A stretch of 64,000 nucleotides of DNA from Minisyncoccia bacterium. Its GTDB lineage: Bacteria > Patescibacteriota > Minisyncoccia > JACQLN01. The notes beneath the pieces were generated by a model. The model had not been told where the DNA came from, did no database searches, and saw only the letters and a list, made by a program, of their open reading frames with translations. The translations under genes and the position numbers were made by a program. Position 1 is the stretch's first letter. Each line of letters opens with the position of its first letter. Positions 38,792 to 56,959 of the stretch are shown here, in pieces. The stretch is taken from contig JBASTM010000011.1 of assembly GCA_049274895.1 (NCBI GenBank), positions 2,011 to 66,010 of the forward strand, in the 5' to 3' direction.

Positions 38792-40663
38792 TCATTTTAG
38801 GAAATCATAAATCTCTACATTGGTATTTTTGTATTCAATTTTTAAATCGTGAAATGTCAAAGTTTTAGGATTAACCAATTGCTTTTCCCAAGGTCCGTAA
38901 TAAATATAATCCCCTCCAAGAGTTTTAATATCAACGCTTGATCCATTATAAATTTTTAAAAGTTTGCCAGCATGGCTTTCAAAAATATATCTAAATACTG
39001 TTTTATTTTCTCCCTCTTGGCCGCGTTTGTAGTACTGCCCGTAAAGATTCCTCATGTTTTTTAAAAGGTTCTGGGCGCGGTGAAAATCTTTTTCTTCACA
39101 AACGTTATCACACAACTCCACCGGGTCGGCCTTCATTATTTTAGCTAAAAAATCCGGATCTACACCGAAAAACTTGTATGTTTCCAAAAAGCGTTCTTCT
39201 AGAACACTATTGGCCTCGCCACTGTTTACACCCACTGCCAAAAACGGGCGAGCGGAGGTGTGGTTGTTTAGATATATCGAAGTCACAAAAGACGGCGAAA
39301 CCACAACCGGTTCGAACGGCAAATTATCATTCATCCAATTCCAAGAATCCGTTACGGAACGGCTGAAGCTGTACTCTTTTAAAATAGCGGGCGGAGAGTT
39401 TAAAAAAACAAGAACATTATTAATTTTCTTGGTGACCAAGAAAAAACAAAGAATCATCAAAATAACCGCCATACCCCTAACAATCTTAGCGTCTCTAACA
39501 AGTTCATAAAAAGAATGAAACAAAATTATAAAAATAAAAGGGCTTATGGCTCTAAACCAATGATCGGGCTGCGGCACAAAACCTGTCACAAGTTGCACCA
39601 ACCAGATTAAGCTCATGGCCGCCGTAAAAATCCAATACAAAACAGCTGTTTTGGAATTACGCCAGTAAAAAACCAAATAAACGACAAAAGCCAGTAAAAG
39701 ATAAAAAAGATAATCGAAGTAAAATGGCGACGGATCGACGACATCAATTCTTCGCCCTTCGGTGATGCCCCAACGGTTAGCTATGTCGTTCGACCAAGGC
39801 AAAGAATTAAAAGAAAAATAATTGACCCAATAAGGAATTGTGACCACAACCACCGCCGCCAAAACCGTTATTACCTCGGGTAAAAGTTTAGGATATTTTT
39901 TCCTGGCGGCGAAAGCATAAACCAAAATAAAACCAAGCACTAGGCTGACAAAAACCCAGTAATGAAAATAAGTGTAAAACATAAGTCCAACAACGAGACC
40001 TAAACTAACTGCCAAGCCACGACTCGGACGGCGCCAAAACAAAAGTAACAAGGTTAAAACAGGCAAAAGAACCAAATAGGTCAACATAGGATCCAACGTC
40101 CGAGCTAAAAATAAATCCGTTAGAGGGGTTTTTATGGCTGGATAAAAATTTTTTAAAACAACATCGGAAAATAAATTAATATTTTTAAAAGCATAAGGTA
40201 GATATTTAAAAACTGGAGTCAAAACACCTATCATTCCCATAAAATAAGCCCATAACTTATTTCCAGTTATTACCTTGCCTAACCAATAGAACAGTAAAAA
40301 AAGAATTGGCGGAATAATAAAATGAGCAAATAAATATGATGCGTTAACGTCAGCTTCAAATAAACCCATGAAACCAGCCATAATGATCATGGGAATGGGA
40401 AAGGGACCGAATGGAGAAGGATTGTTGTTATTAAAATGTAGATCGTTAGGCGGAAAATTGCCTTCGTATATTTCCCGGTAGCGGGCTATGGCGCCGTAAG
40501 CCTCATCGCTGTGATGAGAAAGCTGAACGGCTTCATACGGTAAATTTAAATTATCCAATTCTCGCCAAATCAAAATGCTTGGCAGAAAATACAAAAAACC
40601 GATCATTATGGAAGATAAAGATAAAAAACAAACCCATTTGCAACTTAACTTTGCTTTATTCAT
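38792..40663 (-). CDS. Large polytopic membrane protein, paralog A (GT-C-like putative membrane glycosyltransferase/polymerase)
   Basis: 623 aa with at least 12 TM helices. It shares motifs with the next gene: an N-terminal Y..G.FPP.D..FN, a central FYTYFHYWV, and a C-terminal Y(I/V)YYGPWEKQ. Confidence 0.45.
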   Translation of the reverse strand: MNKAKLSCKWVCFLSLSSIMIGFLYFLPSILIWRELDNLNLPYEAVQLSHHSDEAYGAIARYREIYEGNFPPNDLHFNNNNPSPFGPFPIPMIIMAGFMGLFEADVNASYLFAHFIIPPILFLLFYWLGKVITGNKLWAYFMGMIGVLTPVFKYLPYAFKNINLFSDVVLKNFYPAIKTPLTDLFLARTLDPMLTYLVLLPVLTLLLLFWRRPSRGLAVSLGLVVGLMFYTYFHYWVFVSLVLGFILVYAFAARKKYPKLLPEVITVLAAVVVVTIPYWVNYFSFNSLPWSNDIANRWGITEGRRIDVVDPSPFYFDYLFYLLLAFVVYLVFYWRNSKTAVLYWIFTAAMSLIWLVQLVTGFVPQPDHWFRAISPFIFIILFHSFYELVRDAKIVRGMAVILMILCFFLVTKKINNVLVFLNSPPAILKEYSFSRSVTDSWNWMNDNLPFEPVVVSPSFVTSIYLNNHTSARPFLAVGVNSGEANSVLEERFLETYKFFGVDPDFLAKIMKADPVELCDNVCEEKDFHRAQNLLKNMRNLYGQYYKRGQEGENKTVFRYIFESHAGKLLKIYNGSSVDIKTLGGDYIYYGPWEKQLVNPKTLTFHDLKIEYKNTNVEIYDFLK

Positions 40664-42555
40664 TTATTTATTTTGTAAATGGACACATTGGGAGAAAAAT
40701 AAATCGAAGAAAGTTTTTTATTGCTTCTAAAATCAGGTCGACTGAATTGTTTTTCCCATGGCCCGTAATAAACGTAATCGGCAGATAAATCGCCAAAGGT
40801 CGGCATAGGTAAAGTCTTATATTTTTCGGTTAGTTTATTTAAATAATCTTCGGACATAAAACTATCGCCTTTGAGCACGGACTTACCCTTGGAAAAATAA
40901 TTTATGTATAAAAATCTATTACTTTTATTAAGATTCATCCAGCCGTCCTTAGGACATGGTTCGGTACAAGTAACTTCTTTTTCCGAAAGACGATTCTTAA
41001 ATACTTCGGTTGTAACGTCGAAAAACTTATTGGCCGCCAAAAATCTATCCTCCAATCTAGCCATGGGCATGGCCGAAGCAAACCCGGCCGCAAGATAAGG
41101 ACGGCTGGAAGTGTAAGATGCTAAATAAACGGAAGAAACCGGCGAAGAAGACAATAATTTCGGCTCGTGGGGCAAATTTATGTCTATCCAAGACCAAGAC
41201 GAACTGACACTGGAATCAAAATAATACGATTTTAGAACTTCTTCGTTGGGATTTGCCAACTTGATTATATTCACAATTTTTTTTGTGGGTATAACTAAAA
41301 CAAGAAAAATAACAACTAAATTTATTATTTTTTTAAACAGGATTTTTGTCGAAATCTTTTTTAACAAATCGTGAAAAATTACAAACAACATAAAAAAAAC
41401 AATAAAAGCCGCCGCTTTGGTGGCCTGTCCTGGAACAGGCATAAAACCGGTTAAAAACTGCAAGTTTCCCGACAAAACCATCCCCGCCGAGCAAATTAAA
41501 AACAAAATCATCTTGTCTTTTTCGCGTTTTCTGTAAAGGAAATAAGAAATAACTGCCAACACAATATAGACCGGGTACCGCCAACGAAATTGAGTAAAAA
41601 TACCCAAAGACCTACCCTCGGCTACCCCGTAGCGATATACGAAATCTTTGTAATCGGCCAGCTGCGAGGTTTGAAAATAGTTAAAGGCGTAAGGTAAAGT
41701 CACAAGAATCAAAGAGATTCCCAATAAAATAAAATTGAAAAATCTTTCGCGGTTGTTATTCCGATCGTAAACCGAATACAAAAAAAGCATACCTATGACC
41801 AGCGTGACATAAACCCAATAATGAAAATACGTGTAAAACAAAAAACCTGAAGCCACACCGGCTAAGACCGCGTAAATTTTTAAAGGTTTAAACCAAAACT
41901 TGAACAAAAAACCAAAAGAAGCGATTAAAAACGGCAACGTAAGAAGAGGATCGTCGATTCTGGCCAAATATAACTTATGCACTGGAGTGTCTACTAGCGG
42001 CACAAATTGCTTTACCACAACACTCAAAAAACCAATAATCCCGTTTAAATTCATATCGTCCACACCCCAACGGTAAAACCAAAAAGCCAGAGGCGTAAGA
42101 GATCCGCTAAAAGCAAAAAACAACCTCCAATTTAGGGATTCAAAAAATATTTTTGATAACAAATATAAACCCGCGAATATGACGATGGAAAATAAAAATT
42201 GGGCGCTGAGATAGGCTAAGTTCGTATCGCCGTTCCATAAGAAAAAAAACGCCGAAAAAACGAGAGGCGGCAGATGATTTAATACCGTCGGCCTTTGTTC
42301 GTTAAAATAAGCGTCTTGGGGCGGAAAATGACCGTCGTAAACCTCGTGGGCCCGCGGCAAATAATCTTTAAGCTCATCTTTGTAAGTTTCCAATTGAGCC
42401 AAAACAAAAGAGCTGTCCGAATGATTGAAATTTTTCCAAATTAAAAAAGGCGGTAAAAAGTAAAACAGGGCAACAACAACGCCCAATATCGCGACCATTA
42501 ATGTCTCAGCGTATTTTTTTGAAAAATTCACGTTATTTTGGCAACATGGAAACAA
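40660..42555 (-). CDS. Large polytopic membrane protein, paralog B (GT-C-like)
   Basis: 631 aa with the same motif set as paralog A. ATGA overlap with paralog A. Confidence 0.45.
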   Translation of the reverse strand: MFPCCQNNVNFSKKYAETLMVAILGVVVALFYFLPPFLIWKNFNHSDSSFVLAQLETYKDELKDYLPRAHEVYDGHFPPQDAYFNEQRPTVLNHLPPLVFSAFFFLWNGDTNLAYLSAQFLFSIVIFAGLYLLSKIFFESLNWRLFFAFSGSLTPLAFWFYRWGVDDMNLNGIIGFLSVVVKQFVPLVDTPVHKLYLARIDDPLLTLPFLIASFGFLFKFWFKPLKIYAVLAGVASGFLFYTYFHYWVYVTLVIGMLFLYSVYDRNNNRERFFNFILLGISLILVTLPYAFNYFQTSQLADYKDFVYRYGVAEGRSLGIFTQFRWRYPVYIVLAVISYFLYRKREKDKMILFLICSAGMVLSGNLQFLTGFMPVPGQATKAAAFIVFFMLFVIFHDLLKKISTKILFKKIINLVVIFLVLVIPTKKIVNIIKLANPNEEVLKSYYFDSSVSSSWSWIDINLPHEPKLLSSSPVSSVYLASYTSSRPYLAAGFASAMPMARLEDRFLAANKFFDVTTEVFKNRLSEKEVTCTEPCPKDGWMNLNKSNRFLYINYFSKGKSVLKGDSFMSEDYLNKLTEKYKTLPMPTFGDLSADYVYYGPWEKQFSRPDFRSNKKLSSIYFSPNVSIYKINK

Positions 42556-43909
42556 TAAACTTCCCTATTCTCAAACCGGAAGATCCGTCGAACTTATAAG
42601 CCTGTTCGCGAAGAAAACGCTCTCTGCCGTCTTTGTCTATTTGAGGATTATTTAGATATAAATTAATGTTTTTTACCAATTCATCTTGGTTTTCGGCTAC
42701 TCTGCAACAATTTGTCTTTAACATTTTTTTAACATGATCGTAATATTTAACAAAACGACCAACACTCGAAAGATCGTCTTTTTTTTCGAAGCCGTCGAAA
42801 GAAACGCAAACTACAGGTTTATCAAAACAAACCGCGTCAATAATTAAGCTGGAAGCGTAAACCACAACCAAATCGCTATGAAACAAAGAATCGGCCAACT
42901 TAATGGTTTCTTTGTTCGTAACTTCCTTGTCGGAAAAACTGCCTTCTTTAAAAGAAACACCCGTTTCGTAAATAAAAAAACGCTTCGAAGGAAGGAAGTA
43001 ATCCAATTCCACTTTGTCGTTGGGAGGCAATCTCACTAAAAATCTTACATCGTCGGGCAAAGAACCTTCGTTTGACTTATTTTTAAGTATTTCCAAAATT
43101 TGCCAATCGGTTTCAATAAAACGTTTACCCAAGGGCCCTAAAAAAACAAGCCGACAAGACGGATCAAAGCCTATATTTTTAAAAAAATCCAGCCTGGAAA
43201 TTCGAGGTTCGTTAAAATAATAATCTAATTGAGGCATTCCGCCGACGAATATATTGCCGCTTTTCATCCCCTGATACTTAACGACTTCCGATTTTATCGT
43301 TTCGTTGTGAACAATAAGCTTGTCGGGAGTAAAACGAAACAAACCCTTGTTGGTTATGTTATCCCATGATCTAACCATTCCTACAACAGTAATTCCACTT
43401 TTTTTCGCTTCGGCCAACAAATTTATGTCGCTGTTGTGAAAAATATCGGTGCAAAAAACAAGATCGGGTTCATACTTTTCAAAAAAAGGTTTAAAAAAAA
43501 CGCTGTTTATGGAAATATGGTCTAAAAACCTGGCCAGAGACTTAACGCCCGGAATTTTGCTGGCAAAATAAGCCAAAAATCTGGAGAGGATATAAGCAAA
43601 AAAATCTTTATCTTGAGACAACTTTCGTTTTTGATGTAAAAATCTTGTTTTGGTGTTTAAAAGCGATCCCGACAGATACCTAAAAATAATTCCTTGTTTG
43701 CGTACGGGCAAATCTTTTATTCCTTCTATTAAAACATTCTCGCTCGCGAAATTTTTAACAAAATAATCTTTCTTGTAATCCGGGCAAAAAATAACTATCC
43801 GGCAATCGGCCGTTTTTTTTATTGCTTCTAAAACATCAGATTCCAGTATGTTTCTGGAAATAAATGGATTAAAACTGGTTATAAATATTGTTCGCATAAT
43901 ATTGAGCAA
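42533..43909 (-). CDS. CDP-glycerol glycerophosphotransferase-like (TagB/TagF family), paralog 2
   Basis: 458 aa with GMVRSWDNIT...GGMPQLDYYF. Confidence 0.55.
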   Translation of the reverse strand: MLNIMRTIFITSFNPFISRNILESDVLEAIKKTADCRIVIFCPDYKKDYFVKNFASENVLIEGIKDLPVRKQGIIFRYLSGSLLNTKTRFLHQKRKLSQDKDFFAYILSRFLAYFASKIPGVKSLARFLDHISINSVFFKPFFEKYEPDLVFCTDIFHNSDINLLAEAKKSGITVVGMVRSWDNITNKGLFRFTPDKLIVHNETIKSEVVKYQGMKSGNIFVGGMPQLDYYFNEPRISRLDFFKNIGFDPSCRLVFLGPLGKRFIETDWQILEILKNKSNEGSLPDDVRFLVRLPPNDKVELDYFLPSKRFFIYETGVSFKEGSFSDKEVTNKETIKLADSLFHSDLVVVYASSLIIDAVCFDKPVVCVSFDGFEKKDDLSSVGRFVKYYDHVKKMLKTNCCRVAENQDELVKNINLYLNNPQIDKDGRERFLREQAYKFDGSSGLRIGKFIVSMLPK

Positions 43910-44966
43910 CTTTATTCCAACTCATCGACTTAGCAAAATCGATCGAAGCTCTAGACAATTTTTCTTTAAGACCAATATCGCCAATTATGGATAAAATAGC
44001 TTCAGCTGCTTTTTTTCCATCATTAGTTGGAACCAAAAATCCGTTTATTCCGTTTTTCACCGCGTCTTCGGCACTTGTATTCAAAGTTGCTATAATAGGC
44101 AGACCATAAACAGCAGCTTCCAGAAACACCAAACCAAAACCTTCAATATCTTTACCGTCGTCTTGAGGCAATAAAATAAACAACTCGGCGGCGTGATATA
44201 ACGCAATTAAAAAGTCTTCTTCGACCTTGTCAAAAAAAACCACCTTGTTTTCAATTTTGAGATTTGACATTTGATATTTAAGATTATCCTTTTCCGGTCC
44301 TTTACCCACAATGACGTATTTTAATTCGGGAAATTGTTTGGATATTCGGGCGAAAGTTTCAATCGAATACTCGTACCCTTTTCTTTTTTTTAACGTTCCC
44401 ACGCTTAAAATATACGGCTTTAAATCGGTAATTTGCTTGCCCTCCGTAACTTTACCGCGTCCTTCCGAAGTCTTGGACGAAGTAGGAGCGAAGGAGGAAA
44501 ATTTTTCAAAATCCACCCCATGATTTATAACCTCGATTTTTAAGTTGGGAATGATTTTTAAAATTTCTTTTTTGGTGTTATTACTTATAGCCACAACCTT
44601 GTCGGCTTTTTTGTAGGCCCAAATCATGAGGGTTTTTTTAAAAAAGCGGTACAGCGGCTGAACCGCTCCCGTGCCTATCGCCGTAATAACTATTTTTTTT
44701 CTAAGGCCAACAGAAAAAGCGGTAGCTATGAATCCGTAAGGCCAGCCGTCTAAGGCGTGAATAACTTCGCTTTGGCTGAAAATTCCGCGTATTTTAAAAA
44801 AATTAAAAAGTAAGGATACAAATCCTCCGGAAAGAATGTCCATCGAGGTTAAAATTTTAAATTCCCAATCGGGGTTTTCCTTCTTTAAGGCTCGCGAAAA
44901 AGACAACCAAAAACTGCCGGAGCCGGTATTTGGTTTTAGATTGTGGTTAAGGAAGCATATTTTCAT
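43869..44966 (-). CDS. GT4 (GT1-fold) glycosyltransferase
   Basis: 365 aa with EGFGLVFLEAAVYGLPIIAT. Confidence 0.8.
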   Translation of the reverse strand: MKICFLNHNLKPNTGSGSFWLSFSRALKKENPDWEFKILTSMDILSGGFVSLLFNFFKIRGIFSQSEVIHALDGWPYGFIATAFSVGLRKKIVITAIGTGAVQPLYRFFKKTLMIWAYKKADKVVAISNNTKKEILKIIPNLKIEVINHGVDFEKFSSFAPTSSKTSEGRGKVTEGKQITDLKPYILSVGTLKKRKGYEYSIETFARISKQFPELKYVIVGKGPEKDNLKYQMSNLKIENKVVFFDKVEEDFLIALYHAAELFILLPQDDGKDIEGFGLVFLEAAVYGLPIIATLNTSAEDAVKNGINGFLVPTNDGKKAAEAILSIIGDIGLKEKLSRASIDFAKSMSWNKVAQYYANNIYNQF

Positions 44967-45930
44967 AACGATTCAAAAACTTGTAAAACATGTTCCAACA
45001 ATGGAGTTTCCACGGTTTTAGTAACTTAGAAACATCCGAATAGTTGTTTTCACCCAAAAACAAAGAAGAAAAAGGTTTCCGAGAAGATTTTACCGCCACC
45101 AACCTGATATGATTGTTTCTGGGAAAACCTTTCTGCAATGCCAACTCTTTCAAACTCTTACGCGCATCATCCTCAAAAAATATTAAATCGAATCCGGCCG
45201 AGGCCGCGAAATTTTTAAGAACATTGGGTGCAAACATGTAAGGATGATCGATCTGAATCGAATTTAAAATTTTGCCAGATTTTCTCGACTGTAAAATGAA
45301 ATTCTTTACCTCCAGGTATAAAACCCCATTGTCTTTAAGAACGCCGTAAGCCCAAGAAAAAAAGTGGCGCGGATCCAAAAAATGATTGAGTGCTTGGGTG
45401 CAAAAAACATTGTCGGCTTTAACGGGAAAAGTGTCGGTATTTATATCCTCTATCGAGGCCTGTTTCGTTTGAACGTTGTTTTTTAGGGCATGATTACTTT
45501 CATACAAAGAAGGTTCTACACCTAAAATATCGTTACCCAATACGCTTCTTACGCCGCTTAAAAGACCTCCTGTCCCGGATCCAACGTCAATAATCAAGCC
45601 CGGCTTAAAATAACGCCCCAATTTTTCGGCTAAAAATCTTCCTTCTTTAAAGCGTTTTCCAAAAATACTGCTTAATTTATCGTCTTTTAAAATATTTCTC
45701 TTGTTCTTTAAAATATTTTTCGTCCTGTATTCGCCCGTCGAATAATATTCGTCGTACCACTTTTTGGTCATTCTGGGATTAATGAATATGAGCCCGCATT
45801 TTTTGCAAATGCACGTATCTAAATTCAACCCGTCATGAGTCCGCCGAGCTATAATTTCCAAATTGTTACCCAAGCATAAATTACAAGGTAATTGTTCCTT
45901 TAAAGATGTTTCATAATTTAAATTCAACAT
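44947..45930 (-). CDS. Class I SAM methyltransferase with N-terminal Zn-ribbon
   Basis: 327 aa with CNLC...CKKCG and the MT motif IIDVGSGTGGL. Confidence 0.7.
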   Translation of the reverse strand: MLNLNYETSLKEQLPCNLCLGNNLEIIARRTHDGLNLDTCICKKCGLIFINPRMTKKWYDEYYSTGEYRTKNILKNKRNILKDDKLSSIFGKRFKEGRFLAEKLGRYFKPGLIIDVGSGTGGLLSGVRSVLGNDILGVEPSLYESNHALKNNVQTKQASIEDINTDTFPVKADNVFCTQALNHFLDPRHFFSWAYGVLKDNGVLYLEVKNFILQSRKSGKILNSIQIDHPYMFAPNVLKNFAASAGFDLIFFEDDARKSLKELALQKGFPRNNHIRLVAVKSSRKPFSSLFLGENNYSDVSKLLKPWKLHCWNMFYKFLNRYENMLP

Positions 45931-48716
45931 AAATTTAAATGTTTTTTAATAATATTTAAACACTCGTTAACCGACATTTTGCTGGTATGTAAAGTAATGC
46001 TCGGATTTTCGGGAACCTCGTAGGGGTAACCCTCGCTCACACCGATTAAATTTTTTATCTCGCCTGCTTCGGCTTTTCGATAAAGACCTTTGGTGTCGCG
46101 ATTGGAGCATTCAGACACCGGACAGTCCACAAAAAGTTCCGTAAAACGGTCAGGCCCTATGATTCCTTTCGCCAAAGATCTGTCGTCCTTAAAAGGAGAA
46201 ATAACCGGCACTAAAACGTAATCGCATTCTGCGATTTTTTTTCTGGCTAGACCAGCGATGAATCTGTTATTTTCCCTAATATCCTCGCGCGAAAAACCCA
46301 GATGACGGTTTAAAGTACTCCTAACTACATCTCCATCGATTATCTCCGCCTTTTTCCCTAAAAATTCCATGTCTTTTTTAAACGCTTCGGCTAACGTTGT
46401 CTTGCCCGAACCGGAAAGACCGGTAAACCAAATAACTTTTTTGCCGGCTAAGGTCGGTTCTTTAACGAAAACTTCTTCGTTGTTTTTTATAGCCGCGGTT
46501 ATCATCCGTGAAATTTCCGGGCGCATGAACCATTCGGGCGGCTCGATGCCGTTCTCAAGCATTTTTCTGGCTTGAGTACCACTTATATACAGCTTGTCGT
46601 TTTCGGAATGGTCATTGCCAACTTCGGCTTCAGTAACATGAAAATTCTTCTTCTTGGAATAAAAAACATTGTCGAACTTGATTATTTCCATACCTAAATC
46701 GGGCAATTGGTCGAATATGGTGTGGGAAGCCTTGGGAGAATAAAAATTGCCCACGCCGGTATGATCGCGACCAACAATAAAAGAACTGCATCCATAATTT
46801 TTGCGGCATATGGCGGTAAAAACCGCTTCCCTGGGGCCGGCATACCTGGAATAGGTGGCAAAAGCCGCTAAAACAACCTTGCCTTTGGGATAAAATTTTT
46901 CCAGCATCATTGCGTATGATTTTATTATGAAATCGGCGTTAAAATCGCCGACTTTCTTTTTGCCCACCACAGGGTGAATCAATAAACCGTCGCAACCGGT
47001 CCGTTTTAAGGCTTGAAGCTGGATATATTCATGACTCCTGTGTATCACGTTCCTGGTATGAAAACCAACCACGTTAGACCAGCCTAAGTCGTTAAACAGT
47101 CGGCGGATCTGCCGTGGCGTTAACTCGTAAGCTCTGGTTTTGGACTTTCTTCGGCTTACTAAAAATATTTTCCCGCCCAAAAGAACCGGATTCATGCTTT
47201 CAATCCTTTTAACCCCGGGATGGCTTTTATCTTCGGTCCCGTAAAGTTTTATCGACATTTCTTTCTTGTCGAAATTAAATTTTTCGTCGAGATCAAGAAT
47301 AGCTATAACATCGCCTCGACTATCGGCCAAAGCCGCTTTTTGCCCGATTTTCAAACCTTCGGCTTGATCGGCCGGTACGTCTAAAACAATTGGAATTGGC
47401 CAAATAACTCCGTTTTTGAGGCGCGTGGAATCCAACACGGAATTAAAATCATCCTTATTCATAAAACCTTCCAAAGGACTGAAAACCCCGGTGGCTATTT
47501 GTTCCGCGTCCATTTGTAGATCGTCGTTCAAAACAATTTTAGGCAAAGATTCCAAATATTCCCGCGCAGGCAGTTCGCTGCTCTTTAAGACCCGGTCAAC
47601 TAGCTTGCCTCCGTGCGGCTCAGGCAAACCGGAATTTATCTCCATATCCAAAAGATAGTTGGTAGCGTCGAAATGTTTTACAAAATCGCCGTTATCATTG
47701 TTTTTGATTTTTTTGTTCTCTAAAGCCAACTGGGCATGCCGAATAAGCTTTTTTAACATATTTATGCATTCCATCGGATGCTTGCCGATGGCCGCTTCTC
47801 CGGCCAAAGTTAGACCGGCCGCCCCGTCCAAAATGGTGGTTATGACATCGTGAACTTCGGCGCGAGTCGGTTTCTTTTTTTCTATCATAGTTTCCAAAAG
47901 ATTGGTGGCAACAAAAACTTCTTTGTTTTTTGATTTTGCTTTGTGCAGTATTATCTTTTGGGTAAACGGTATTTTTTCGATTGGTATCTCCTTACTCAAA
48001 TCTCCGCGGTCAATCAATAAGTAATCCGATTTATCTATGATTTCATCAAGATTCTCTAAAGCATCCAAACACTCTATTTTCGAAATTATTTTCATCGAAC
48101 CGTTAGTGGCTTTTTTGACGGTGTCGACGGATTTACCGGAACGAGCGAAAGACATGGCAATATGCTCCACTTTATTGGCTAATCCTATAGCTATGGACTG
48201 ATGATCTTTTTCAGACAACGTCGGCAGAATTATTTTTTTTCCAGAACCGGAATCAACGACAACTCCTTTGTTTTTTCCGACCTCGCCGCCCACCACCACC
48301 CTGGACATTACATAACCGTGAGATAACGTGGAAACATCCAAAACCTGCAAAACCAAAGTGTCAAAATCGATGTATATTAAATCGCCTTCTTTTAACTGCT
48401 CTAAAACAATTTCCGGCTTAAGGCATATATTTTCCGAGTCTCCCACGATATCACCTTTATGGATTTTAACTTTGCTGCCTTCGGTGTAATAAACCTTGTT
48501 TGAAATAAGATCACCGCTACGGATTTGGGAACCTTCGGTATCGATTATAAATGGCAGCCCGACTTTTTGAGACAACGACAAAAAATACTTAAGATCGTCC
48601 AAGGTGGAATGAGACATGTTTATTCTCACAAAATCAACGCCTTTGGCTTTTATTTTCCTAAGATGTTCTTCGGTATTCGTGGACGGACCGAGTGTAACTA
48701 TTATTTTTACATCCAT
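45924..48716 (-). CDS. Trifunctional fusion of a pyruvate kinase catalytic domain to sulfate adenylyltransferase (ATP sulfurylase) and adenylylsulfate (APS) kinase, i.e. a PAPS synthase with an N-terminal PK module
   Basis: 930 aa. Residues 1-330 align motif by motif with the pyruvate kinase A/B domains (IVTLGPST, VRINMSHS, DTEGSQIR, ISKIECLDALENL, LIDRGDLS, ATNLLETM...PTRAEV, TLAGEAA). The middle is ATP sulfurylase (HTRNVIHRSHEY). The C-terminus is APS kinase (FTGLSGSGKTTLA). Confidence 0.75.
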   Translation of the reverse strand: MDVKIIVTLGPSTNTEEHLRKIKAKGVDFVRINMSHSTLDDLKYFLSLSQKVGLPFIIDTEGSQIRSGDLISNKVYYTEGSKVKIHKGDIVGDSENICLKPEIVLEQLKEGDLIYIDFDTLVLQVLDVSTLSHGYVMSRVVVGGEVGKNKGVVVDSGSGKKIILPTLSEKDHQSIAIGLANKVEHIAMSFARSGKSVDTVKKATNGSMKIISKIECLDALENLDEIIDKSDYLLIDRGDLSKEIPIEKIPFTQKIILHKAKSKNKEVFVATNLLETMIEKKKPTRAEVHDVITTILDGAAGLTLAGEAAIGKHPMECINMLKKLIRHAQLALENKKIKNNDNGDFVKHFDATNYLLDMEINSGLPEPHGGKLVDRVLKSSELPAREYLESLPKIVLNDDLQMDAEQIATGVFSPLEGFMNKDDFNSVLDSTRLKNGVIWPIPIVLDVPADQAEGLKIGQKAALADSRGDVIAILDLDEKFNFDKKEMSIKLYGTEDKSHPGVKRIESMNPVLLGGKIFLVSRRKSKTRAYELTPRQIRRLFNDLGWSNVVGFHTRNVIHRSHEYIQLQALKRTGCDGLLIHPVVGKKKVGDFNADFIIKSYAMMLEKFYPKGKVVLAAFATYSRYAGPREAVFTAICRKNYGCSSFIVGRDHTGVGNFYSPKASHTIFDQLPDLGMEIIKFDNVFYSKKKNFHVTEAEVGNDHSENDKLYISGTQARKMLENGIEPPEWFMRPEISRMITAAIKNNEEVFVKEPTLAGKKVIWFTGLSGSGKTTLAEAFKKDMEFLGKKAEIIDGDVVRSTLNRHLGFSREDIRENNRFIAGLARKKIAECDYVLVPVISPFKDDRSLAKGIIGPDRFTELFVDCPVSECSNRDTKGLYRKAEAGEIKNLIGVSEGYPYEVPENPSITLHTSKMSVNECLNIIKKHLNLC

Positions 48717-48727
48717 GATTTTATTGA

Positions 48728-50461
48728 TTAATCGTCGATATATTTTCTAAACCATGCTTCCAAATCCAATAACTGCCATAAAAAAAATGAATTATCGCCT
48801 TTGCCGGAAAAAAACTCATCAACCTTCTCTTTAACTTTAACACTGTTCCAATAAGGCCGGTTTTTGAAACTCGGAGAATTTATGATGTCGTAAACTTCTT
48901 TTTTGAAATGCCGCCTCAACCATTTAGTTTGAAAAGCCCCGAAGAAAAACTTGGGCTTATTCTTGCCCTCGTCCGGAACGATTCCTTCCATAGAATCGCG
49001 CAACAAAGTTTTGAACCGGCCGTCCTCCATTTTTAACCTTTTAGGCAGAAAAAAACAAAATTCCGCCAAACGATAATCCAAATACGGCACTCTTAACTCC
49101 CGGCCATACGCCATGCTTATGTGATCGTTGAAACGCAAAACCCGCGGCATCTTTATATATTTTATATCTCTATACTGCATATTTAAGAGATCGGACTTAA
49201 AAGGTTTCGGAAAATCTGTTTTTAAATCCTTAAATTTTAAAGCAAATTTTGAATCTATTATTCCCGGTTCGCCTTCGCGGGTGAGATCCTGACTTATATT
49301 GTTTTCTCTGCCGCCGGTCTCGTAATACTTATACCCACCCAAAATCTCGTCCGCACCCTGGCCCTCCAAAAGAACTTTTACCCCCAGTATTCCAGTTTCT
49401 TCGTATAAATTGAAATAATTTATGGTGGAAAAACCTCCATAGGGCTCGTCTTGTATCTCCGTCAACCTATCTTTAAGCCACCAAGTTTTTTCGGGCGTGA
49501 GTTTGCTGGTATACAAAAAATTTTTCTGTTTTTTAGAAAGCAAGTTTTTCAAATACTTAACCTCGTCGTAATCGGCGTCAGCCAGCCCGGCCGAAAAAAG
49601 ACGGAGCTGTTCGCCCATCAGACTGTTCGCAAAAAAAAGCATACTCATAGAATCCAGGCCACTGGAAACGTTAAGCCCCACCGGCGCGTCGCTTCTGAAT
49701 TGCAATCTGATGGCGTCGGCCATTAATGTTTTAAACAAATCTAAAGCGTCGGTTCGGGAAATGTTGTCATATTGATTCTCTTTATCCTTAAGTAAGGCTA
49801 AATCCCAATAAGTTTTAATCGTTAATTTATTTTTCTTCCATACAGCGCATTCGCCCGGCATGAGGCGGTTTATTCCCTTAAAAAAAGTCTCTTTGGAATG
49901 ATCATAAAAAGCGTGACGTAAATATTCAAATATTATTTTATCGTTCGGCTGAGAACCAACACCCAGTTTAATCAACGCTTTTATTTCGGAAGCAAACTTA
50001 AAAACGCCATTTTCAAAAGAATAATAAAAGGGTTTTATGCCGAAATTGTCACGGGCGCAGAACAGTTCTTTTTCTCTCGTATCGTAAATGGCAAAAGCGA
50101 ACTGTCCGTTAAATTTAAGTAAACAACTCTTTCCCCATTTTTGATAAGCAGCTAACAAAACTTCGGTATCGGTTCCGGTTTTAAACTTAAATTCGGAAAG
50201 TTCTTTCTTTAACTCGATGAAATTAAAAATCTCTCCGTTAAAAACGACTACAAAACGTTTATCGTGGCTAAACATAGGCTGATTACCAGCTAAAGATAAA
50301 TCTAAAATAGCTAATCTCCTATGCCCAAGAGCTACAACCTCATCAGTAATACCATAATAAACACCTTCTCCGTCGGGACCACGGTGTTTCATTGAATCAC
50401 GCGCTTCGATAAATATTTTTTTATTTATCTTTCCGCCGATTTGTCCAATTATGGCACACAT
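48728..50461 (-). CDS. Asparagine synthase (glutamine-hydrolysing)-like amidotransferase
   Basis: 577 aa with the N-terminal nucleophile MCAIIG and an asn-synthase PP-loop SGLDS. Confidence 0.8.
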   Translation of the reverse strand: MCAIIGQIGGKINKKIFIEARDSMKHRGPDGEGVYYGITDEVVALGHRRLAILDLSLAGNQPMFSHDKRFVVVFNGEIFNFIELKKELSEFKFKTGTDTEVLLAAYQKWGKSCLLKFNGQFAFAIYDTREKELFCARDNFGIKPFYYSFENGVFKFASEIKALIKLGVGSQPNDKIIFEYLRHAFYDHSKETFFKGINRLMPGECAVWKKNKLTIKTYWDLALLKDKENQYDNISRTDALDLFKTLMADAIRLQFRSDAPVGLNVSSGLDSMSMLFFANSLMGEQLRLFSAGLADADYDEVKYLKNLLSKKQKNFLYTSKLTPEKTWWLKDRLTEIQDEPYGGFSTINYFNLYEETGILGVKVLLEGQGADEILGGYKYYETGGRENNISQDLTREGEPGIIDSKFALKFKDLKTDFPKPFKSDLLNMQYRDIKYIKMPRVLRFNDHISMAYGRELRVPYLDYRLAEFCFFLPKRLKMEDGRFKTLLRDSMEGIVPDEGKNKPKFFFGAFQTKWLRRHFKKEVYDIINSPSFKNRPYWNSVKVKEKVDEFFSGKGDNSFFLWQLLDLEAWFRKYIDD

Positions 50462-51285
50462 TATATTTTTTTCTTATCTGCCATAATCTGTATCCATCCC
50501 TCGCCATGGATTATACGGCTTTTTAAAGTTTCGTAGTCATATCTTTCAAACTTGACCCGGCGGATGTTTTCGAAACCGGCTTTTTCGAACCAGTTTCTGA
50601 TTTCGGTTTCGGTATAACGATGGGTATAAGGCGTATATAAATTATCCAGCAAATTGTAGCGCTTGTTGGGCGGAACACCGATAACTTTGAATACGGTGTA
50701 AGCTGTTTTAAATGGTATCCATCTTTTTAGAAAAAACCTAAAAAAATCGTTAGTTAGCCATTTTAAACCTCCTTTACCATACATGGAAAGAAAAATCCGT
50801 CCGCCGGGTTTTGCCACCCGAACTAATTCATCAAATCCCTTTTTAGGCTCCGGCATCAACAAAAGTACACCGGAGCAAATAACATAATCGAAGTAATTAT
50901 CTAAAAACGGAAGGTCTCCGGCGGAAGAATTCATAAGTTCTATATTGGAAAGCTCTTTAGCCCACTTTCTGTTTCTGCCAGCTTCCAAACCGGCCTCGTT
51001 TACATCCACACCTATAACTCTGGCCGCCCCCAGACGCCCCAAGGCCACCACGAATCTGCCTTGTCCGCAACCCACATCCAAACAGATTTTATTTTTAAAC
51101 CACTCCATGGGGATACCCCATTTTTTTTGGCGTATGGTAAAAAGTTCCACAGACTCCTCAAATCTTTTTTCGTCGTAACCAGGAAATATCTCGTTATAAA
51201 TAGAAGCGGTTTTATTTTCCGTTTGCGTGGGCTTAAACGACCAATTATCTTTTAGAGGTATTTTTAAAATATTTGTTTCTTTCAT
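50461..51285 (-). CDS. Class I SAM methyltransferase (tandem paralog a)
   Basis: CLDVGCGQGRFVVAL. The start is placed at the ATGA overlap (MKETNILK). The ORF-track start is 51315. Confidence 0.7.
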   Translation of the reverse strand: MKETNILKIPLKDNWSFKPTQTENKTASIYNEIFPGYDEKRFEESVELFTIRQKKWGIPMEWFKNKICLDVGCGQGRFVVALGRLGAARVIGVDVNEAGLEAGRNRKWAKELSNIELMNSSAGDLPFLDNYFDYVICSGVLLLMPEPKKGFDELVRVAKPGGRIFLSMYGKGGLKWLTNDFFRFFLKRWIPFKTAYTVFKVIGVPPNKRYNLLDNLYTPYTHRYTETEIRNWFEKAGFENIRRVKFERYDYETLKSRIIHGEGWIQIMADKKKI

Positions 51286-52052
51286 TGTTTTTTGTCGGCG
51301 TAAATCTGTATCCATCCCTCACCATGGATGATGCGGCTTTTTAAAGTTTCGTAATCGTATCTTTCGAATTTAACGCGGCGTATGTTTTCGAATCCGGATT
51401 CCGAAAACCATCGACGGATTTCAGATTCCAAAAATCTATAACAGTAAGGCACGTATAAATTATCTAAGATGTTATATCTTTTATTGGCCGGAATGCCGAA
51501 AAAAGAAAAAATAGACTCAACCACTTTAAACGGGATAATTCTACAAATGGAATATCTGAATAGATCATTGACCAGCCATTTAAAACCACCTCGGCCGTAA
51601 ACCGAAAGAAACATTTTACCGCCCGGATTTAATACTCGAACAAGTTCGTTGAAAGCTTTTAAAGGATCGGGAGTATGATGTATAACACCGCTTGAAATCA
51701 CATAATCAAAGCCGGCGTCAGGGAAGGGTAAATCCAAAACTGAACCTTCTTGGGCTAAGGCATTACTTATAACTCTTTCTTTGAGTCTTTGGTTAGATAG
51801 ATCCACGGCCGGTTTACTTACGTCAATTCCCACCACTTTTTTCACGCCAAGTCTCGCCAAGGCCACCAAATATCTGCCACCGCCGCAACCAACATCGAGA
51901 CAAACTTTGTTTTTGAACCAGTCCAGATCTATATTCCAAACCCTATGCCTTTTAAAAAACAAGTCTACCGAATCTTCGAAGAGCTTATCGGAATAACCCG
52001 CAAACAAATTACCGTATATCAACGATGTTTTTTCTTTATAAATAGAAGACAT
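51282..52052 (-). CDS. Class I SAM methyltransferase (tandem paralog b)
   Basis: CLDVGCGGGRYLVAL. Its C-terminal 30 aa are nearly identical to paralog a. Confidence 0.75.
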   Translation of the reverse strand: MSSIYKEKTSLIYGNLFAGYSDKLFEDSVDLFFKRHRVWNIDLDWFKNKVCLDVGCGGGRYLVALARLGVKKVVGIDVSKPAVDLSNQRLKERVISNALAQEGSVLDLPFPDAGFDYVISSGVIHHTPDPLKAFNELVRVLNPGGKMFLSVYGRGGFKWLVNDLFRYSICRIIPFKVVESIFSFFGIPANKRYNILDNLYVPYCYRFLESEIRRWFSESGFENIRRVKFERYDYETLKSRIIHGEGWIQIYADKKQ

Positions 52053-52058
52053 TGTTTT

Positions 52059-53396
52059 TTATTTAACCCGGGAAATAATATATTCCGCCAACCGCCGACC
52101 GGAACCGCCGTCCAGTTTCCAACACTTTTCTTGAACTATCCTTTGTCTACCTTCTTTATCCAGATCTGGGTTGGCAAGATAATCTTTAATATAAAACGAA
52201 AAATCATCCGGATTCGTAGCTAACTTTATACCTCCGGTGTTAAGAAGCGATTTTTGATGGTCAAAATCATAAAACCGCCTCAGGCTTTTCCAATAAGGAT
52301 AATTTTTCGCGCCATCGAACCCTATAAAGACAACTGGTTTTCCAAAAACAACGGCATCCACGGCTAAAGTTGAAGCGAAAGCCACTACAACATCGCTATG
52401 ATACAGCAAATCAGCCAATTTGTCGTTAACTCTCAAATCTGATCTCAGGGAATCGGGACTTTCCGACGGCGCATCTATGGCTATTTTACCAGGAACAGCT
52501 TTGAAGGCACCTAAGTTAACATCGCCTACAAAATATAAACGTAGTATCAGTTGAACATCCAAATCAAGAAGTTTTTTTATGGCTACAGGATTAACAGGAT
52601 TGTCTTTGGAAAAAATGTTCGGAGTTGGAGCAAAAAAAACCGTTTTTTTAGAAGGATCCAAATTAAGTTTTTTGAACAATTCCTCTTTGGAAATATTCCT
52701 GTGTTTAATATATTTATCGTAATGAGGAATACCCGACACAAAAATATCTTTCGGCTCGATATCGTTGTATTTTACAGTCTCATTCTTTATGCTTGGAGTG
52801 TTAACCACTAAGCTCCCAGGAATAAACCTGTTAAGACCATGTGTGGTTATGTTATCCCACGATCTCACCATGCCTAAAATCGGTATTCCCCTTTTCTTGG
52901 CTTCCCTAATTACAATAACATCGTGGGGTTCAAAAATATCGGTCGAAAAAACCATATCGGGGGAATATTTTTGGAAAAGATTGGAGAAATTTTCCTTATC
53001 CGAAAAACGGTAATCGAGCCATCTTAAAAACCGGCGAAAAAAACTAAAACGAGAAAGTTTGGCTATTAACGTCCAAAAAATAAAACCAACCCAGCGGTTA
53101 TGTTGTTTAGCTTCGGTGAAACGGCAAATACGCCTAGAATCAGTATCTAAAGCGTTTAAAAACAAAGCCGCCAAAAAAGATTCTTTACGGGAAGGTTTCT
53201 TAAAATTCAAACCTTCAATTTTAACGTTGGTTCCGCCAAATCTTTCCTCATAAGATTCTTTTTTTTCGGCCGGAGCCAGCACTACGATGCTTAGATTCTC
53301 TTTGAGGCTTAATATTTTTAATACGTCCGTATCCAGAATGTTTCTCGCGATCAATCCGAAAAAAGACGTTATAAAAATTGTTTTCTTGTTTTCCAT
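52059..53396 (-). CDS. CDP-glycerol glycerophosphotransferase-like (TagB/TagF family), paralog 3
   Basis: GMVRSWDNIT...SGIPHYDKYIK. The start is placed at MENKKTIFITSF by paralog alignment. The longest ORF reaches 53441. Confidence 0.5.
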   Translation of the reverse strand: MENKKTIFITSFFGLIARNILDTDVLKILSLKENLSIVVLAPAEKKESYEERFGGTNVKIEGLNFKKPSRKESFLAALFLNALDTDSRRICRFTEAKQHNRWVGFIFWTLIAKLSRFSFFRRFLRWLDYRFSDKENFSNLFQKYSPDMVFSTDIFEPHDVIVIREAKKRGIPILGMVRSWDNITTHGLNRFIPGSLVVNTPSIKNETVKYNDIEPKDIFVSGIPHYDKYIKHRNISKEELFKKLNLDPSKKTVFFAPTPNIFSKDNPVNPVAIKKLLDLDVQLILRLYFVGDVNLGAFKAVPGKIAIDAPSESPDSLRSDLRVNDKLADLLYHSDVVVAFASTLAVDAVVFGKPVVFIGFDGAKNYPYWKSLRRFYDFDHQKSLLNTGGIKLATNPDDFSFYIKDYLANPDLDKEGRQRIVQEKCWKLDGGSGRRLAEYIISRVK

Positions 53397-53472
53397 GACC
53401 GAATTCTCTAGTATCATATATAAAACCATACATACAGCCAAAATGTTATAAAAGACTGTAACTGTAAAATCG

Positions 53473-56955: not shown

Positions 56956-56959
56956 TAAA

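What the first reader, a model, noticed from the sequence alone, without database searches (positions are those of the whole stretch)
45924..48716. Pyruvate-kinase catalytic domain fused to ATP sulfurylase and APS kinase (PEP-driven PAPS synthase?)
Seen in sequence: a single 930-aa ORF carries three domains. The N-terminal roughly 330 aa match the pyruvate kinase A/B-domain motifs in order (IVTLGPST, VRINMSHS, DTEGSQIR, KIECLDALENL, IDRGDLS, ATNLLETM...PTRAEV, TLAGEAA) but lack the C-terminal allosteric domain. The middle is ATP sulfurylase (HTRNVIHRSHEY). The C-terminus is APS kinase (Walker A GLSGSGKTTLA). Established: Sat-CysC fusions (PAPS synthases) are known. I am not aware of a PK module joined to them. 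Inference: the PK domain could regenerate ATP from PEP and ADP next to the energetically unfavourable sulfurylase reaction and the ADP-producing APS kinase. This would make PAPS locally for the sulfotransferase at 31597-32526 in an organism with little energy metabolism.
Basis: partly seen in the sequence, partly recalled or inferred. Interest (0 to 1): 0.8.

Follow-up and report, generated by a model that had tools for sequence, protein, structure and literature searches.

The report
Pyruvate-kinase-fused PAPS synthase, widespread but undescribed
One real 930-residue protein joins the catalytic part of pyruvate kinase to the two enzymes that make the activated sulfate donor PAPS; this pairing recurs in hundreds of bacterial and archaeal genomes next to sulfotransferase genes, probably uses phosphoenolpyruvate to keep ATP high and inhibitory ADP low during sulfate activation, and I found no paper describing it.

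Summary
ORF 45924-48716 (-) encodes PK barrel (no C-terminal allosteric domain), PUA_2, ATP sulfurylase and APS kinase, all with strong profile hits and a confident AlphaFold model. It is not an assembly artefact. More than 120 protein clusters and up to 416 species genomes carry the PK-Sat pair (Patescibacteria, DPANN, Chloroflexota, Acidobacteriota, cultured Flavobacterium). The constant unit is PK plus Sat. The APS kinase may be fused at the C-terminus, fused at the N-terminus, or a separate gene, and some genomes encode PK(ΔC), Sat and CysC as adjacent genes. PK catalytic residues are invariant even at 32-58% identity. The partnered sulfurylases form a clade with His replacing the canonical Gln of QxRN (60 PK-linked with His, 0 with Gln; 57 Gln-type, none with PK). 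Sulfotransferase genes, and often a CysQ-like PAP phosphatase, lie alongside. One homologue sits in the NRPS cluster of an N-sulfonated monobactam producer. Best explanation: a PEP-driven ATP-regenerating, ADP-scavenging module for PAPS synthesis. This matches published in vitro cascades in which PK/PEP is needed for good PAPS yield. No biochemistry exists, so activity is inferred. I rate it a new variant of a known kind, of moderate to high interest.

The parts
45924..48716 (-). Whole 930-aa ORF: PK(ΔC)-PUA_2-ATP sulfurylase-APS kinase
47763..48710 (-). Pyruvate kinase A+B (barrel plus lid) domain, aa 3-318, with no C-terminal allosteric domain. Catalytic residues: R31, N33, S35, D59, T60, R66, K150, K213, E215, D239, T271, E307.
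   Evidence: Pfam PF00224 E 6e-66. Alignment to E. coli PykF. Foldseek: about 340 columns at about 3 Å rmsd to solved PKs. Coordinates checked.
47622..47762 (-). Linker, aa 319-365: last PK helix, a lower-confidence stretch, and the conserved NYLLD motif
   Evidence: pLDDT 59-78 in this stretch; family consensus
47154..47621 (-). PUA_2 N-terminal domain of ATP sulfurylase, aa 366-521
   Evidence: Pfam PF14306 E 4e-48
46497..47132 (-). ATP sulfurylase catalytic domain, aa 529-740, with F-H-T-R-N-x-x-H-x-x-H (aa 552-562) and GRDHTG (aa 649-654)
   Evidence: Pfam PF01747 E 5e-77. TIGR00339 scores 355 bits, above its 323-bit cut-off. Foldseek TM 0.94 and 2.1 Å to 8a8d. Motifs.
47058..47060 (-). 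Codon of His553, which replaces the canonical Gln of the sulfurylase QxRN motif. This is the signature of the PK-associated sulfurylase clade.
   Evidence: Invariant in 120 of 120 close homologues. Among 150 representatives, 60 PK-linked have His and 0 have Gln. Solved sulfurylases have Gln. Codon checked.
45990..46439 (-). APS kinase domain, aa 760-909 (P-loop GLSGSGKT at aa 766-773, DGD, SPF, KGLY)
   Evidence: Pfam PF01583 E 2e-45. TIGR00455 scores 171.5 bits, above its 138.7-bit cut-off. Motif conservation.
31597..32526 (-). Sulfotransferase (Sulfotransfer_1/_3), the likely PAPS consumer in the same gene cluster. It is the only sulfotransferase detectable in the window.
15385..63848 (-). 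Surrounding surface-glycan biosynthesis locus, almost entirely on the minus strand. It contains Bac_transf, Wzy_C-TPR, CMP-nonulosonic-acid genes (CTP_transf_3, Epimerase_2, NeuB x2), UDP-sugar dehydrogenase, GT2/GT4 glycosyltransferases, five TagF-like enzymes, methyltransferases, a radical-SAM enzyme, a GHMP kinase and AsnB.

Best explanation
The gene encodes a self-contained PAPS factory. The sulfurylase domain makes APS from ATP and sulfate, and the APS-kinase domain phosphorylates APS to PAPS, releasing ADP. The N-terminal pyruvate-kinase A/B module has lost the allosteric and tetramerisation C-domain. It uses phosphoenolpyruvate to convert ADP back to ATP on the same polypeptide. The net reaction is sulfate + ATP + PEP -> PAPS + PPi + pyruvate. 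Regenerating ATP would supply both ATP-consuming steps. Removing ADP would relieve two known brakes. [quoted passage not shown] Second, ADP binds the sulfurylase active site much as the product APS does. PAPS is then used by the cluster's sulfotransferase to sulfate a cell-surface glycan. What is shown: the architecture, the intact active sites, the conserved PK/Sat pairing whether fused or split, and the sulfotransferase/CysQ context. What is inferred: PEP-dependent ATP regeneration and its kinetic benefit.
For: All four domains give strong profile hits, and the AlphaFold model is confident. PK residues equivalent to PykF R32, N34, S36, D66, T67, R73, K156, K220, E222, D246, T278 and E314 are essentially invariant in 120 close homologues. 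The core R/N/D/R/K/E/D/E is invariant in 47 of 47 representatives whose PK domains are only 32-58% identical, and in three stand-alone PK(ΔC) genes. The PK/Sat pairing is maintained in several arrangements: fused as PK-Sat, as Sat-PK (P0156), with PK_C retained (P0133), or as adjacent separate genes (L087, L089, L091). This pattern is typical of functionally linked proteins. The APS kinase is fused in 30 of 82 loci and lies within 400 bp in another 22. A sulfotransferase lies within 150 bp in 25 of 82 loci, and in 33 of 46 loci with at least 5 kb on both flanks; my HMM misses some families, so these are lower bounds. A CysQ-like gene is present in 18 loci and is fused in L038. A homologue lies between NRPS genes in [Flexibacter] sp. 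ATCC 35103, which produces the N-sulfonated monobactam SQ 28,332. Monobactam N-sulfonation uses PAPS (PMC11298585). Published biochemistry: PAPS synthesis by PAPSS1 needs a PK/PEP module because of the dead-end ADP-APS complex (PMC9885120; PMC3734648). ADP binds sulfurylase like APS (PMC3734648).
Against: No member of the family has been assayed. The C-domain that normally mediates PK tetramerisation and regulation is missing, so activity in this context is unproven. Family-specific substitutions lie close to the PK active site (PykF K68->E/Q, E71->Q, Q279->N) and could change cation dependence or substrate. In 24 of 82 loci no APS kinase was found within the available flanks, so in those cases ADP would have to come from elsewhere. 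ATP regeneration alone does not change the equilibrium of the sulfurylase step. No pyrophosphatase or CysQ was found in this window.
Confidence: 0.7

Rival explanations
1. The PK module is catalytically active but has altered chemistry or is mechanistically coupled to the His-type sulfurylase. For example, ATP might be channelled directly so that PEP's group-transfer potential drives APS formation beyond the bulk equilibrium, analogous to the GTPase in CysDN. Alternatively the phosphoryl acceptor or the anion specificity might have changed.
For: The His-for-Gln change in the sulfate-binding QxRN motif, and GRDHTG in place of GRDHAG, go strictly with PK association: 60 versus 0 among PK-linked proteins, and 57 Gln-type without PK. 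PK carries its own family-specific changes near the active site. PK is tied to Sat rather than to the ADP-producing kinase. The high pTM of 0.78 suggests a defined interdomain arrangement.
Against: The His/PK correlation could simply mark a single clade in which the pairing arose once. Split-gene versions (L087, L089, L091) argue against an obligatory covalent channel. All canonical PK and sulfurylase catalytic residues other than the Gln are retained. I could not obtain model coordinates or a PAE map to test the geometry.
Confidence: 0.12
2. The PK module is a general NTP supplier (NDP-kinase-like) for the nucleotidylyltransferases of the glycan cluster, and is not specific to PAPS synthesis.
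For: P0076 is an NTP_transferase-PK-Sat fusion. NTP_transferase genes lie directly beside PK-Sat or PK in L002/L003 and L089. Both Sat and sugar-1-phosphate nucleotidylyltransferases consume NTP and release PPi. From my own knowledge, PK accepts several NDPs.
Against: The invariable partner is the sulfurylase. NTP_transferase is an occasional neighbour only. The module also occurs in an NRPS cluster (L070, L075).
Confidence: 0.08
3. The PK module is simply the organism's housekeeping glycolytic pyruvate kinase that happens to be fused to Sat, or it is a non-catalytic scaffold or PEP-sensing regulatory domain.
For: Patescibacteria have small genomes and few enzymes, and JGI and UniRef name several of these proteins 'pyruvate kinase'. 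Loss of the C-domain could indicate loss of normal PK function.
Against: The same module occurs on very large contigs and in Flavobacterium, inside glycan or NRPS clusters. Catalytic residues are invariant across deep divergence, which argues against a non-catalytic role. The allosteric domain needed for glycolytic regulation is absent.
Confidence: 0.07
4. The fusion is an assembly or frameshift artefact that joined separate genes.
For: None beyond the prior possibility in a metagenome-assembled genome.
Against: The same continuous ORF occurs in more than 100 independent clusters and in isolate genomes. AlphaFold gives confident structure on both sides of the junction.
Confidence: 0.01

Closest known systems
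Bifunctional ATP sulfurylase/APS kinase (PAPS synthase), e.g. Aquifex aeolicus Sat-CysC (PDB 2gks) and human PAPSS1
   Same: Residues 364-930 have the same domains in the same order as the Aquifex enzyme. 2gks is the best PDB match (E 1e-96). The HxxH, GRDH, P-loop, DGD and KGLY motifs are retained.
   Different: There is an extra 330-aa pyruvate-kinase A/B module at the N-terminus. The sulfurylase has His instead of Gln in QxRN. The score is below the NCBIfam equivalog cut-off for the bifunctional enzyme (436 versus 669 bits).
Pyruvate kinase (e.g. E. coli PykF, PDB 1pky)
   Same: The full A (TIM barrel) and B (lid) domains are present, and all PEP, Mg2+, K+ and nucleotide-contact residues I checked are kept.
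   Different: The C-terminal allosteric and tetramerisation domain (PF02887) is absent. Family-specific changes are K68->E, E71->Q and Q279->N (PykF numbering). The module is always partnered with a sulfurylase. The score is below the TIGR01064 cut-off (277 versus 306 bits).
ATP sulfurylase-inorganic pyrophosphatase fusions of stramenopiles and haptophytes (PMC2275785)
   Same: The logic is the same: a helper enzyme is fused to the sulfurylase to overcome its very unfavourable equilibrium.
   Different: In the algal fusions the helper removes the product PPi. Here the helper regenerates the substrate ATP and removes ADP. The lineages and the fold are unrelated.
GTPase-coupled sulfurylase CysD/CysN
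   Same: Sulfate activation is tied to the expenditure of a second high-energy phosphate compound (own knowledge of the CysDN literature).
   Different: CysD and CysN are unrelated in fold. Their coupling is conformational, through GTP hydrolysis. Here any coupling would run through ATP/ADP and is unproven.
Engineered one-pot PAPS synthesis with PK/PEP ATP regeneration (PMC9885120)
   Same: The same set of activities is used: sulfurylase, APS kinase and pyruvate kinase with PEP. That paper showed PK/PEP to be necessary for PAPS yield because ADP traps the APS kinase.
   Different: That is a mixture of separate enzymes in a test tube. Here the combination is a natural single polypeptide or operon.
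Cluster-embedded PAPS supply in monobactam biosynthesis (APS-kinase domain of SulI in the sulfazecin cluster; PMC11298585)
   Same: A PAPS-making activity is encoded inside the gene cluster whose product is sulfonated. The Flavobacterium/Flexibacter homologue lies between NRPS genes of a monobactam producer.
   Different: SulI carries only an APS-kinase domain fused to an NRPS module, with no PK and no sulfurylase.

Membership tests
Pyruvate kinase (EC 2.7.1.40) | PK barrel (A domain) with inserted B lid domain, Pfam PF00224 | tested here: met
   E 6e-66, profile positions 4-328 of 328. Foldseek aligns about 340 columns at about 3 Å rmsd to PykF and M. tuberculosis PK.
Pyruvate kinase (EC 2.7.1.40) | Catalytic Lys, Mg2+ ligands Glu/Asp, K+ site Asn/Ser/Asp/Thr, and nucleotide/PEP Arg and Lys residues | tested here: met
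   R31, N33, S35, D59, T60, R66, K150, K213, E215, D239, T271 and E307 align with the PykF residues. They are invariant or nearly so in the family.
Pyruvate kinase (EC 2.7.1.40) | C-terminal alpha/beta allosteric and tetramerisation domain (PF02887) | tested here: not met
   No PK_C hit. The sulfurylase begins about 45 residues after the barrel. The protein scores below the TIGR01064 cut-off (276.6 versus 306.4 bits). A rare relative, P0133, retains PK_C.
Pyruvate kinase (EC 2.7.1.40) | Catalyses PEP + ADP -> pyruvate + ATP | not testable with these tools
   Needs an enzyme assay.
ATP sulfurylase (Sat, EC 2.7.7.4) | PUA_2 plus ATP-sulfurylase domains, scoring above curated cut-offs | tested here: met
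   PF14306 E 4e-48 and PF01747 E 5e-77. TIGR00339 scores 355 versus a 323-bit cut-off, and NF003166 scores 426 versus 387. TM 0.94 to 8a8d.
ATP sulfurylase (Sat, EC 2.7.7.4) | Active-site motifs QxRN, HxxH and GRDHAG | tested here: inconclusive
   R555, N556, H559, H562 and GRDH are conserved. However, the Gln is His553 (invariant in the family) and GRDHAG reads GRDHTG. The effect on activity is unknown.
APS kinase (CysC, EC 2.7.1.25) | APS_kinase domain above cut-off, with P-loop, DGD, SP[FY] and KGLY motifs | tested here: met
   PF01583 E 2e-45. TIGR00455 scores 171.5 versus a 138.7-bit cut-off. Motifs are conserved in 78 of 80 long forms.
Bifunctional Sat/CysC PAPS synthase (NCBIfam NF004040) | Equivalog score cut-off of 669 bits | tested here: not met
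   Score 435.9 bits over aa 386-925. The domain order is the same, but this is a divergent clade.
PAPS-supplying module of a sulfation pathway | Genomic association with sulfotransferase and PAP phosphatase genes | tested here: met
   The window sulfotransferase is at 31597-32526. Homologue loci: a sulfotransferase in 33 of 46 loci with at least 5 kb on both flanks and adjacent in 25 of 82 loci; a CysQ-like gene in 18 of 82. No CysQ was found in this window.

The most novel reading that the evidence does not exclude
PK(ΔC) and the His-type sulfurylase form a mechanistically coupled machine. ATP made from PEP would be handed directly to the sulfurylase, or the His-for-Gln active site would work differently. 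PEP's phosphoryl-transfer potential would then drive APS formation beyond what bulk ATP/ADP allows. That would be a third, previously unknown solution to the thermodynamic problem of sulfate activation, alongside PPi hydrolysis and the CysN GTPase.
Probability: 0.12. Interest if true: 0.85.

Novelty: new variant of a known kind. Interest (0 to 1): 0.6.

Why it matters
Sulfate activation is one of the most thermodynamically uphill steps in metabolism. The known ways of driving it are PPi hydrolysis, rapid APS phosphorylation and a coupled GTPase. A natural, widespread pairing of the sulfurylase with a stripped-down pyruvate kinase would add a PEP-linked strategy. It mirrors what enzymologists had to build by hand to make PAPS in vitro, so it could give biotechnology a compact, single-polypeptide PAPS generator. 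It also matters for annotation. These proteins are labelled either 'pyruvate kinase' or 'sulfate adenylyltransferase', so they can wrongly be counted as evidence for glycolytic ATP generation, or for sulfur assimilation or dissimilation, in Patescibacteria and DPANN genomes. Here they actually indicate sulfated surface glycans or sulfonated natural products. The His-for-Gln signature gives a simple sequence marker for this class. Cultured Flavobacterium strains make the hypothesis directly testable.

Tried and rejected
- Assembly or frameshift artefact: rejected, because the same ORF occurs in many independent assemblies and in isolates.
- An intein or other insertion in the roughly 4 kb matches and the 1341-aa P0002: rejected. 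The extra part is a degenerate Sat-like domain plus an APS kinase placed at the N-terminus.
- First iterative phmmer classification of neighbours: discarded because it drifted through multidomain ORFs. I replaced it with domain-trimmed HMMs. These still miss Sulfotransfer_2-like enzymes (for example L075:9077-9979), so the sulfotransferase counts are lower bounds.
- The afdb50 fold library was unavailable. The PDB search only reconfirmed the individual domains.
- The tools give no model coordinates or PAE, so I could not measure the interdomain geometry or the distance between active sites.
- Ten literature searches with various term combinations found no paper describing a PK-sulfurylase fusion. 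Papers that hold both terms mention PK only as a coupling enzyme or in gene lists. Subscription-only literature was not searchable.
- A CysQ, pyrophosphatase or second sulfotransferase in the window: not found.
- Whether the genomes also carry a canonical PK could not be tested, because only flanks of up to 10 kb are accessible.


Full report
**Observation.** The window contains one uninterrupted ORF at 45924..48716 on the minus strand (930 aa, ATG start). Pfam finds four domains in order:
- pyruvate kinase barrel, aa 3-318, E 6e-66, covering the whole profile
- PUA_2, aa 366-521
- ATP-sulfurylase, aa 529-740, E 5e-77
- APS_kinase, aa 760-909, E 2e-45

There is no hit to the PK C-terminal domain. 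NCBIfam agrees. The sulfurylase and APS-kinase domain models are passed. The full-length PK equivalogs are missed only narrowly (TIGR01064: 277 bits against a 306-bit cut-off), because a third of the canonical enzyme is absent. The best solved relatives are the Aquifex bifunctional Sat/APS kinase 2gks for aa 390-919 and E. coli PykF for aa 3-343. An AlphaFold2 model built on a 36-sequence family alignment is confident throughout (mean pLDDT 89.7, pTM 0.78). Its sulfurylase part superposes on the M. thermolithotrophicus enzyme (TM 0.94, 2.1 Å). Its PK part superposes on solved PKs over about 340 columns at about 3 Å. No solved chain covers the whole protein.

**Not an artefact, and not rare.**
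- The identical sequence is in NCBI as 'sulfate adenylyltransferase [Minisyncoccia bacterium]'.
- The 120 best database clusters all carry PK + PUA_2 + Sat. About 80 are roughly 930 aa with an APS kinase, and about 40 are roughly 750 aa without one.
- A scan of one genome per species found 416 loci encoding relatives. The best 80 include Patescibacteria, DPANN archaea, Chloroflexota, Acidobacteriota, Gemmatimonadota, Planctomycetota, NC10, Omnitrophota and Acidimicrobiia. They also include the cultured strains Flavobacterium sp. Leaf82 and [Flexibacter] sp. ATCC 35103.
- Public names are 'sulfate adenylyltransferase' (RefSeq) or 'Pyruvate kinase' (UniRef, JGI), never both.

**What is conserved.**
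- In 120 close homologues, the residues that align with PykF R32, N34, S36, D66, T67, R73, K156, K220, E222, D246, T278 and E314 are invariant or nearly so, in both the long and the short forms.
- In 47 cluster representatives whose PK domains are only 32-58% identical to the window's (median 39%), the core R/N/D/R/K/E/D/E is still 47 of 47. The same holds for three stand-alone PK genes described below. This is the pattern expected for a working phosphotransferase, not a relic.
- Family-specific changes close to the site are PykF K68->E/Q, E71->Q and Q279->N.
- The sulfurylase keeps R, N, HxxH and GRDH, and the APS kinase keeps its P-loop, DGD, SP[FY] and KGLY motifs.

**An unexpected signature.** Every one of the 120 homologues has His where all solved sulfurylases have the Gln of the QxRN motif (F-H-T-R-N). 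Nearly all also have GRDHTG instead of GRDHAG. I searched 1.84 billion cluster representatives with the sulfurylase domain alone and classified the best 150:

| PK domain | Motif residue | Count |
|---|---|---|
| present | His | 60 |
| present | Gln | 0 |
| present | not found by my pattern | 7 |
| absent | Gln | 57 |
| absent | His | 20 |
| absent | other or not found | 6 |

Several of the 20 His-type proteins without PK are fragments. I looked up five of full size, and four had enough flanking DNA to judge:
- L087 encodes a 344-aa PK(ΔC) gene ending 1 nt before the sulfurylase, followed by an APS-kinase gene.
- L091 has a 353-aa PK gene 113 bp upstream.
- L089/L090 have Sat, then a Phosphodiest-family gene, then a 357-aa PK.
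- L088 has a PK-Sat fusion next door.
- The fifth contig (L092) was too short to tell.

The His-type sulfurylase clade is therefore the PK-associated clade, whether the two are fused or split.

**Variations on the module**:
- P0156 has the reverse order, Sat-PK.
- P0133 keeps the PK C-domain.
- P0002 carries a degenerate Sat-like domain plus the APS kinase at the N-terminus.
- P0076 adds an NTP_transferase.
- P0146 adds a PF01663 phosphodiesterase-family domain.
- L038 is PK-Sat-CysC-CysQ in one ORF.
- L008, L039 and L086 have CysC-CysQ fusions.

The invariant pair is PK plus Sat. The APS kinase is mobile.

**Context.**
- In the window the gene sits 11 bp downstream of an AsnB-like gene and overlaps the next methyltransferase gene by 7 nt. 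It lies inside a surface-glycan locus of about 48 kb that is almost entirely on one strand.
- That locus holds a priming transferase, Wzy, CMP-nonulosonic-acid genes, TagF-like enzymes, GT2/GT4 enzymes, many methyltransferases, and one sulfotransferase at 31597-32526.
- Among 82 non-redundant homologue loci, the APS kinase is fused in 30, within 400 bp in 22, further away within the flank in 6, and not seen in 24.
- A sulfotransferase is detected in 46 of the 82 loci, and within 150 bp in 25. It is detected in 33 of the 46 loci that have at least 5 kb on both sides. A CysQ-like phosphatase is present in 18. The sulfotransferase numbers are lower bounds.
- Typical arrangements are sulfotransferase, PK-Sat-CysC, then CysQ (L005, L006), and PK-Sat among five sulfotransferases in a Wzx/Wzy cluster (L001).
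- In the two Flavobacterium strains the gene lies between giant NRPS genes. A PALP enzyme lies near the start of the locus, and directly upstream of the fusion gene is a 301-aa ORF with Sulfotransfer_2-like PAPS-binding motifs.
- [Flexibacter] sp. ATCC 35103 is the producer of the N-sulfonated monobactam SQ 28,332 (PMC9248904). Monobactam N-sulfonation uses PAPS, and the sulfazecin cluster likewise embeds an APS-kinase domain (PMC11298585).

**Mechanism.**
- The sulfurylase reaction is strongly endergonic and is product-inhibited by APS.
- ADP binds the sulfurylase site almost exactly as APS does (PMC3734648).
- In vitro, PAPS synthesis by human PAPSS1 gave almost no PAPS without a PK/PEP ATP-regeneration module and a clear PAPS peak with it. 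The authors attributed this to removal of ADP (PMC9885120).
- The natural fusion therefore most likely does what the engineered cascade does. It converts ADP to ATP with PEP, next to the two ATP-using enzymes. The net reaction is sulfate + ATP + PEP -> PAPS + PPi + pyruvate.
- Because ADP is expected to compete at the sulfurylase as well as at the kinase, this also explains why PK is tied to Sat even where CysC is a separate gene.
- These steps are inference from conserved residues, gene association and published enzymology. No member of the family has been assayed.

**Rivals.**
- A mechanistically coupled or chemically altered system is not excluded. The strict His/PK correlation and the PK-side substitutions hint at it, but the correlation may only mark a single clade, and the split-gene versions argue against obligatory channelling.
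- A general NTP-supply role is suggested by the NTP_transferase fusions and neighbours, but Sat is the constant partner.
- A housekeeping or non-catalytic PK is unlikely, given the occurrence on very large contigs and inside biosynthetic clusters, and the invariant active site.
- An assembly artefact is excluded.

**Comparison with the known, and novelty.**
- The C-terminal two-thirds is a divergent member of the Sat-CysC PAPS synthases.
- The N-terminal third is a pyruvate kinase that fails one defining feature of the family, the C-domain.
- The closest conceptual precedents are the ATPS-pyrophosphatase fusions of stramenopiles and haptophytes (PMC2275785), the CysN GTPase, and man-made PK/PEP-coupled PAPS cascades.
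- Ten full-text searches found no description of a PK-sulfurylase pairing.
- I therefore class it as a new variant of a known kind. It is widespread, already present but mislabelled in databases, and testable in cultured strains.

Noticed in passing
window 47058-47060 (His553); family-wide in P0001-P0120 and P0128-P0276: PK-associated sulfurylases form a clade marked by His in place of the canonical Gln of QxRN, and mostly by GRDHTG in place of GRDHAG. Gln-type sulfurylases among the 150 nearest representatives never carry PK. The functional meaning (anion affinity, ADP/APS discrimination) is unknown.
   Followed up: yes
P0146, P0211; L087:2580-3968 and 6670-8094; L089:6187-7554: A PF01663 'Phosphodiest' (nucleotide pyrophosphatase / alkaline-phosphatase superfamily) enzyme recurs with the module. 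It is fused as Phosphodiest-PK-Sat (P0146) and as Sat-Phosphodiest (P0211, which is Gln-type). It is also encoded beside or between the split Sat and PK genes. It may be another helper, removing PPi or PAP.
   Followed up: partly
L087:3965-6681; L091:3827-6185; L089:5001-8632: Split versions of the module exist: stand-alone C-domain-less PK genes (344-357 aa) adjacent to His-type Sat genes, and in L087 also to a CysC gene. These are the unfused counterparts of the window protein.
   Followed up: yes
P0133; P0156; L038:3-3227; P0002; P0076: Other architectures: PK + PK_C + Sat (C-domain retained); Sat-PK (reverse order); PK-Sat-CysC-CysQ in one ORF; [degenerate Sat + CysC]-PK-Sat; NTP_transferase-PK-Sat.
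   Followed up: partly
L070 and L075, positions 820-17474: In [Flexibacter] sp. ATCC 35103, producer of the monobactam SQ 28,332, and in Flavobacterium sp. Leaf82, the PK-Sat-CysC gene lies between giant NRPS genes. A PALP (SbnA-like) gene lies near the start of the locus, and a 301-aa ORF with Sulfotransfer_2-like motifs and no Pfam hit lies directly upstream of the fusion gene. This is probably the monobactam cluster's own PAPS supply.
   Followed up: partly
L002:4693-7548: A 951-aa protein combines CTP_transf_like + PPDK_N + PEP-utilizers domains in the same glycan cluster as a PK-Sat gene. It is a second case of a nucleotidyltransferase fused to a phosphotransfer module of the PEP-utilising kind.
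   Followed up: no
L005:3048-5897 and 9397-9972: One locus carries CysD/CysN-like genes (PAPS_reduct x2 + GTP_EFTU) and an extra stand-alone APS kinase immediately upstream of the PK-Sat-CysC gene, so two different sulfate-activation systems sit side by side.
   Followed up: no
window 15385-63848: This is a very large, almost single-strand surface-glycan locus. It has two NeuB homologues, two CMP-sugar cytidylyltransferases, five TagF-like glycerophosphotransferase homologues, a B12/radical-SAM enzyme, a GHMP kinase and at least seven methyltransferases. Large ORFs without any Pfam hit lie at 38792-40663, 40660-42555, 55558-56955 and 25625-26782.
   Followed up: partly
window 1-15000: The window upstream of the glycan locus holds type IV pilus genes (two T2SSE ATPases, PilM, PilO), a ComF-like phosphoribosyltransferase, EF-G, ribosomal protein S7, an M50 peptidase, tRNA-Pro(GGG) at 13375-13446 and a bacterial-type PGI. 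GC content falls from about 0.48 there to about 0.37-0.44 in the glycan locus.
   Followed up: no
annotation in public databases: The same proteins are named 'pyruvate kinase' by JGI and UniRef and 'sulfate adenylyltransferase' by NCBI. Metabolic reconstructions of Patescibacteria and DPANN that count K00873 or sat hits may therefore over-call glycolytic ATP generation or sulfur assimilation and dissimilation.
   Followed up: no
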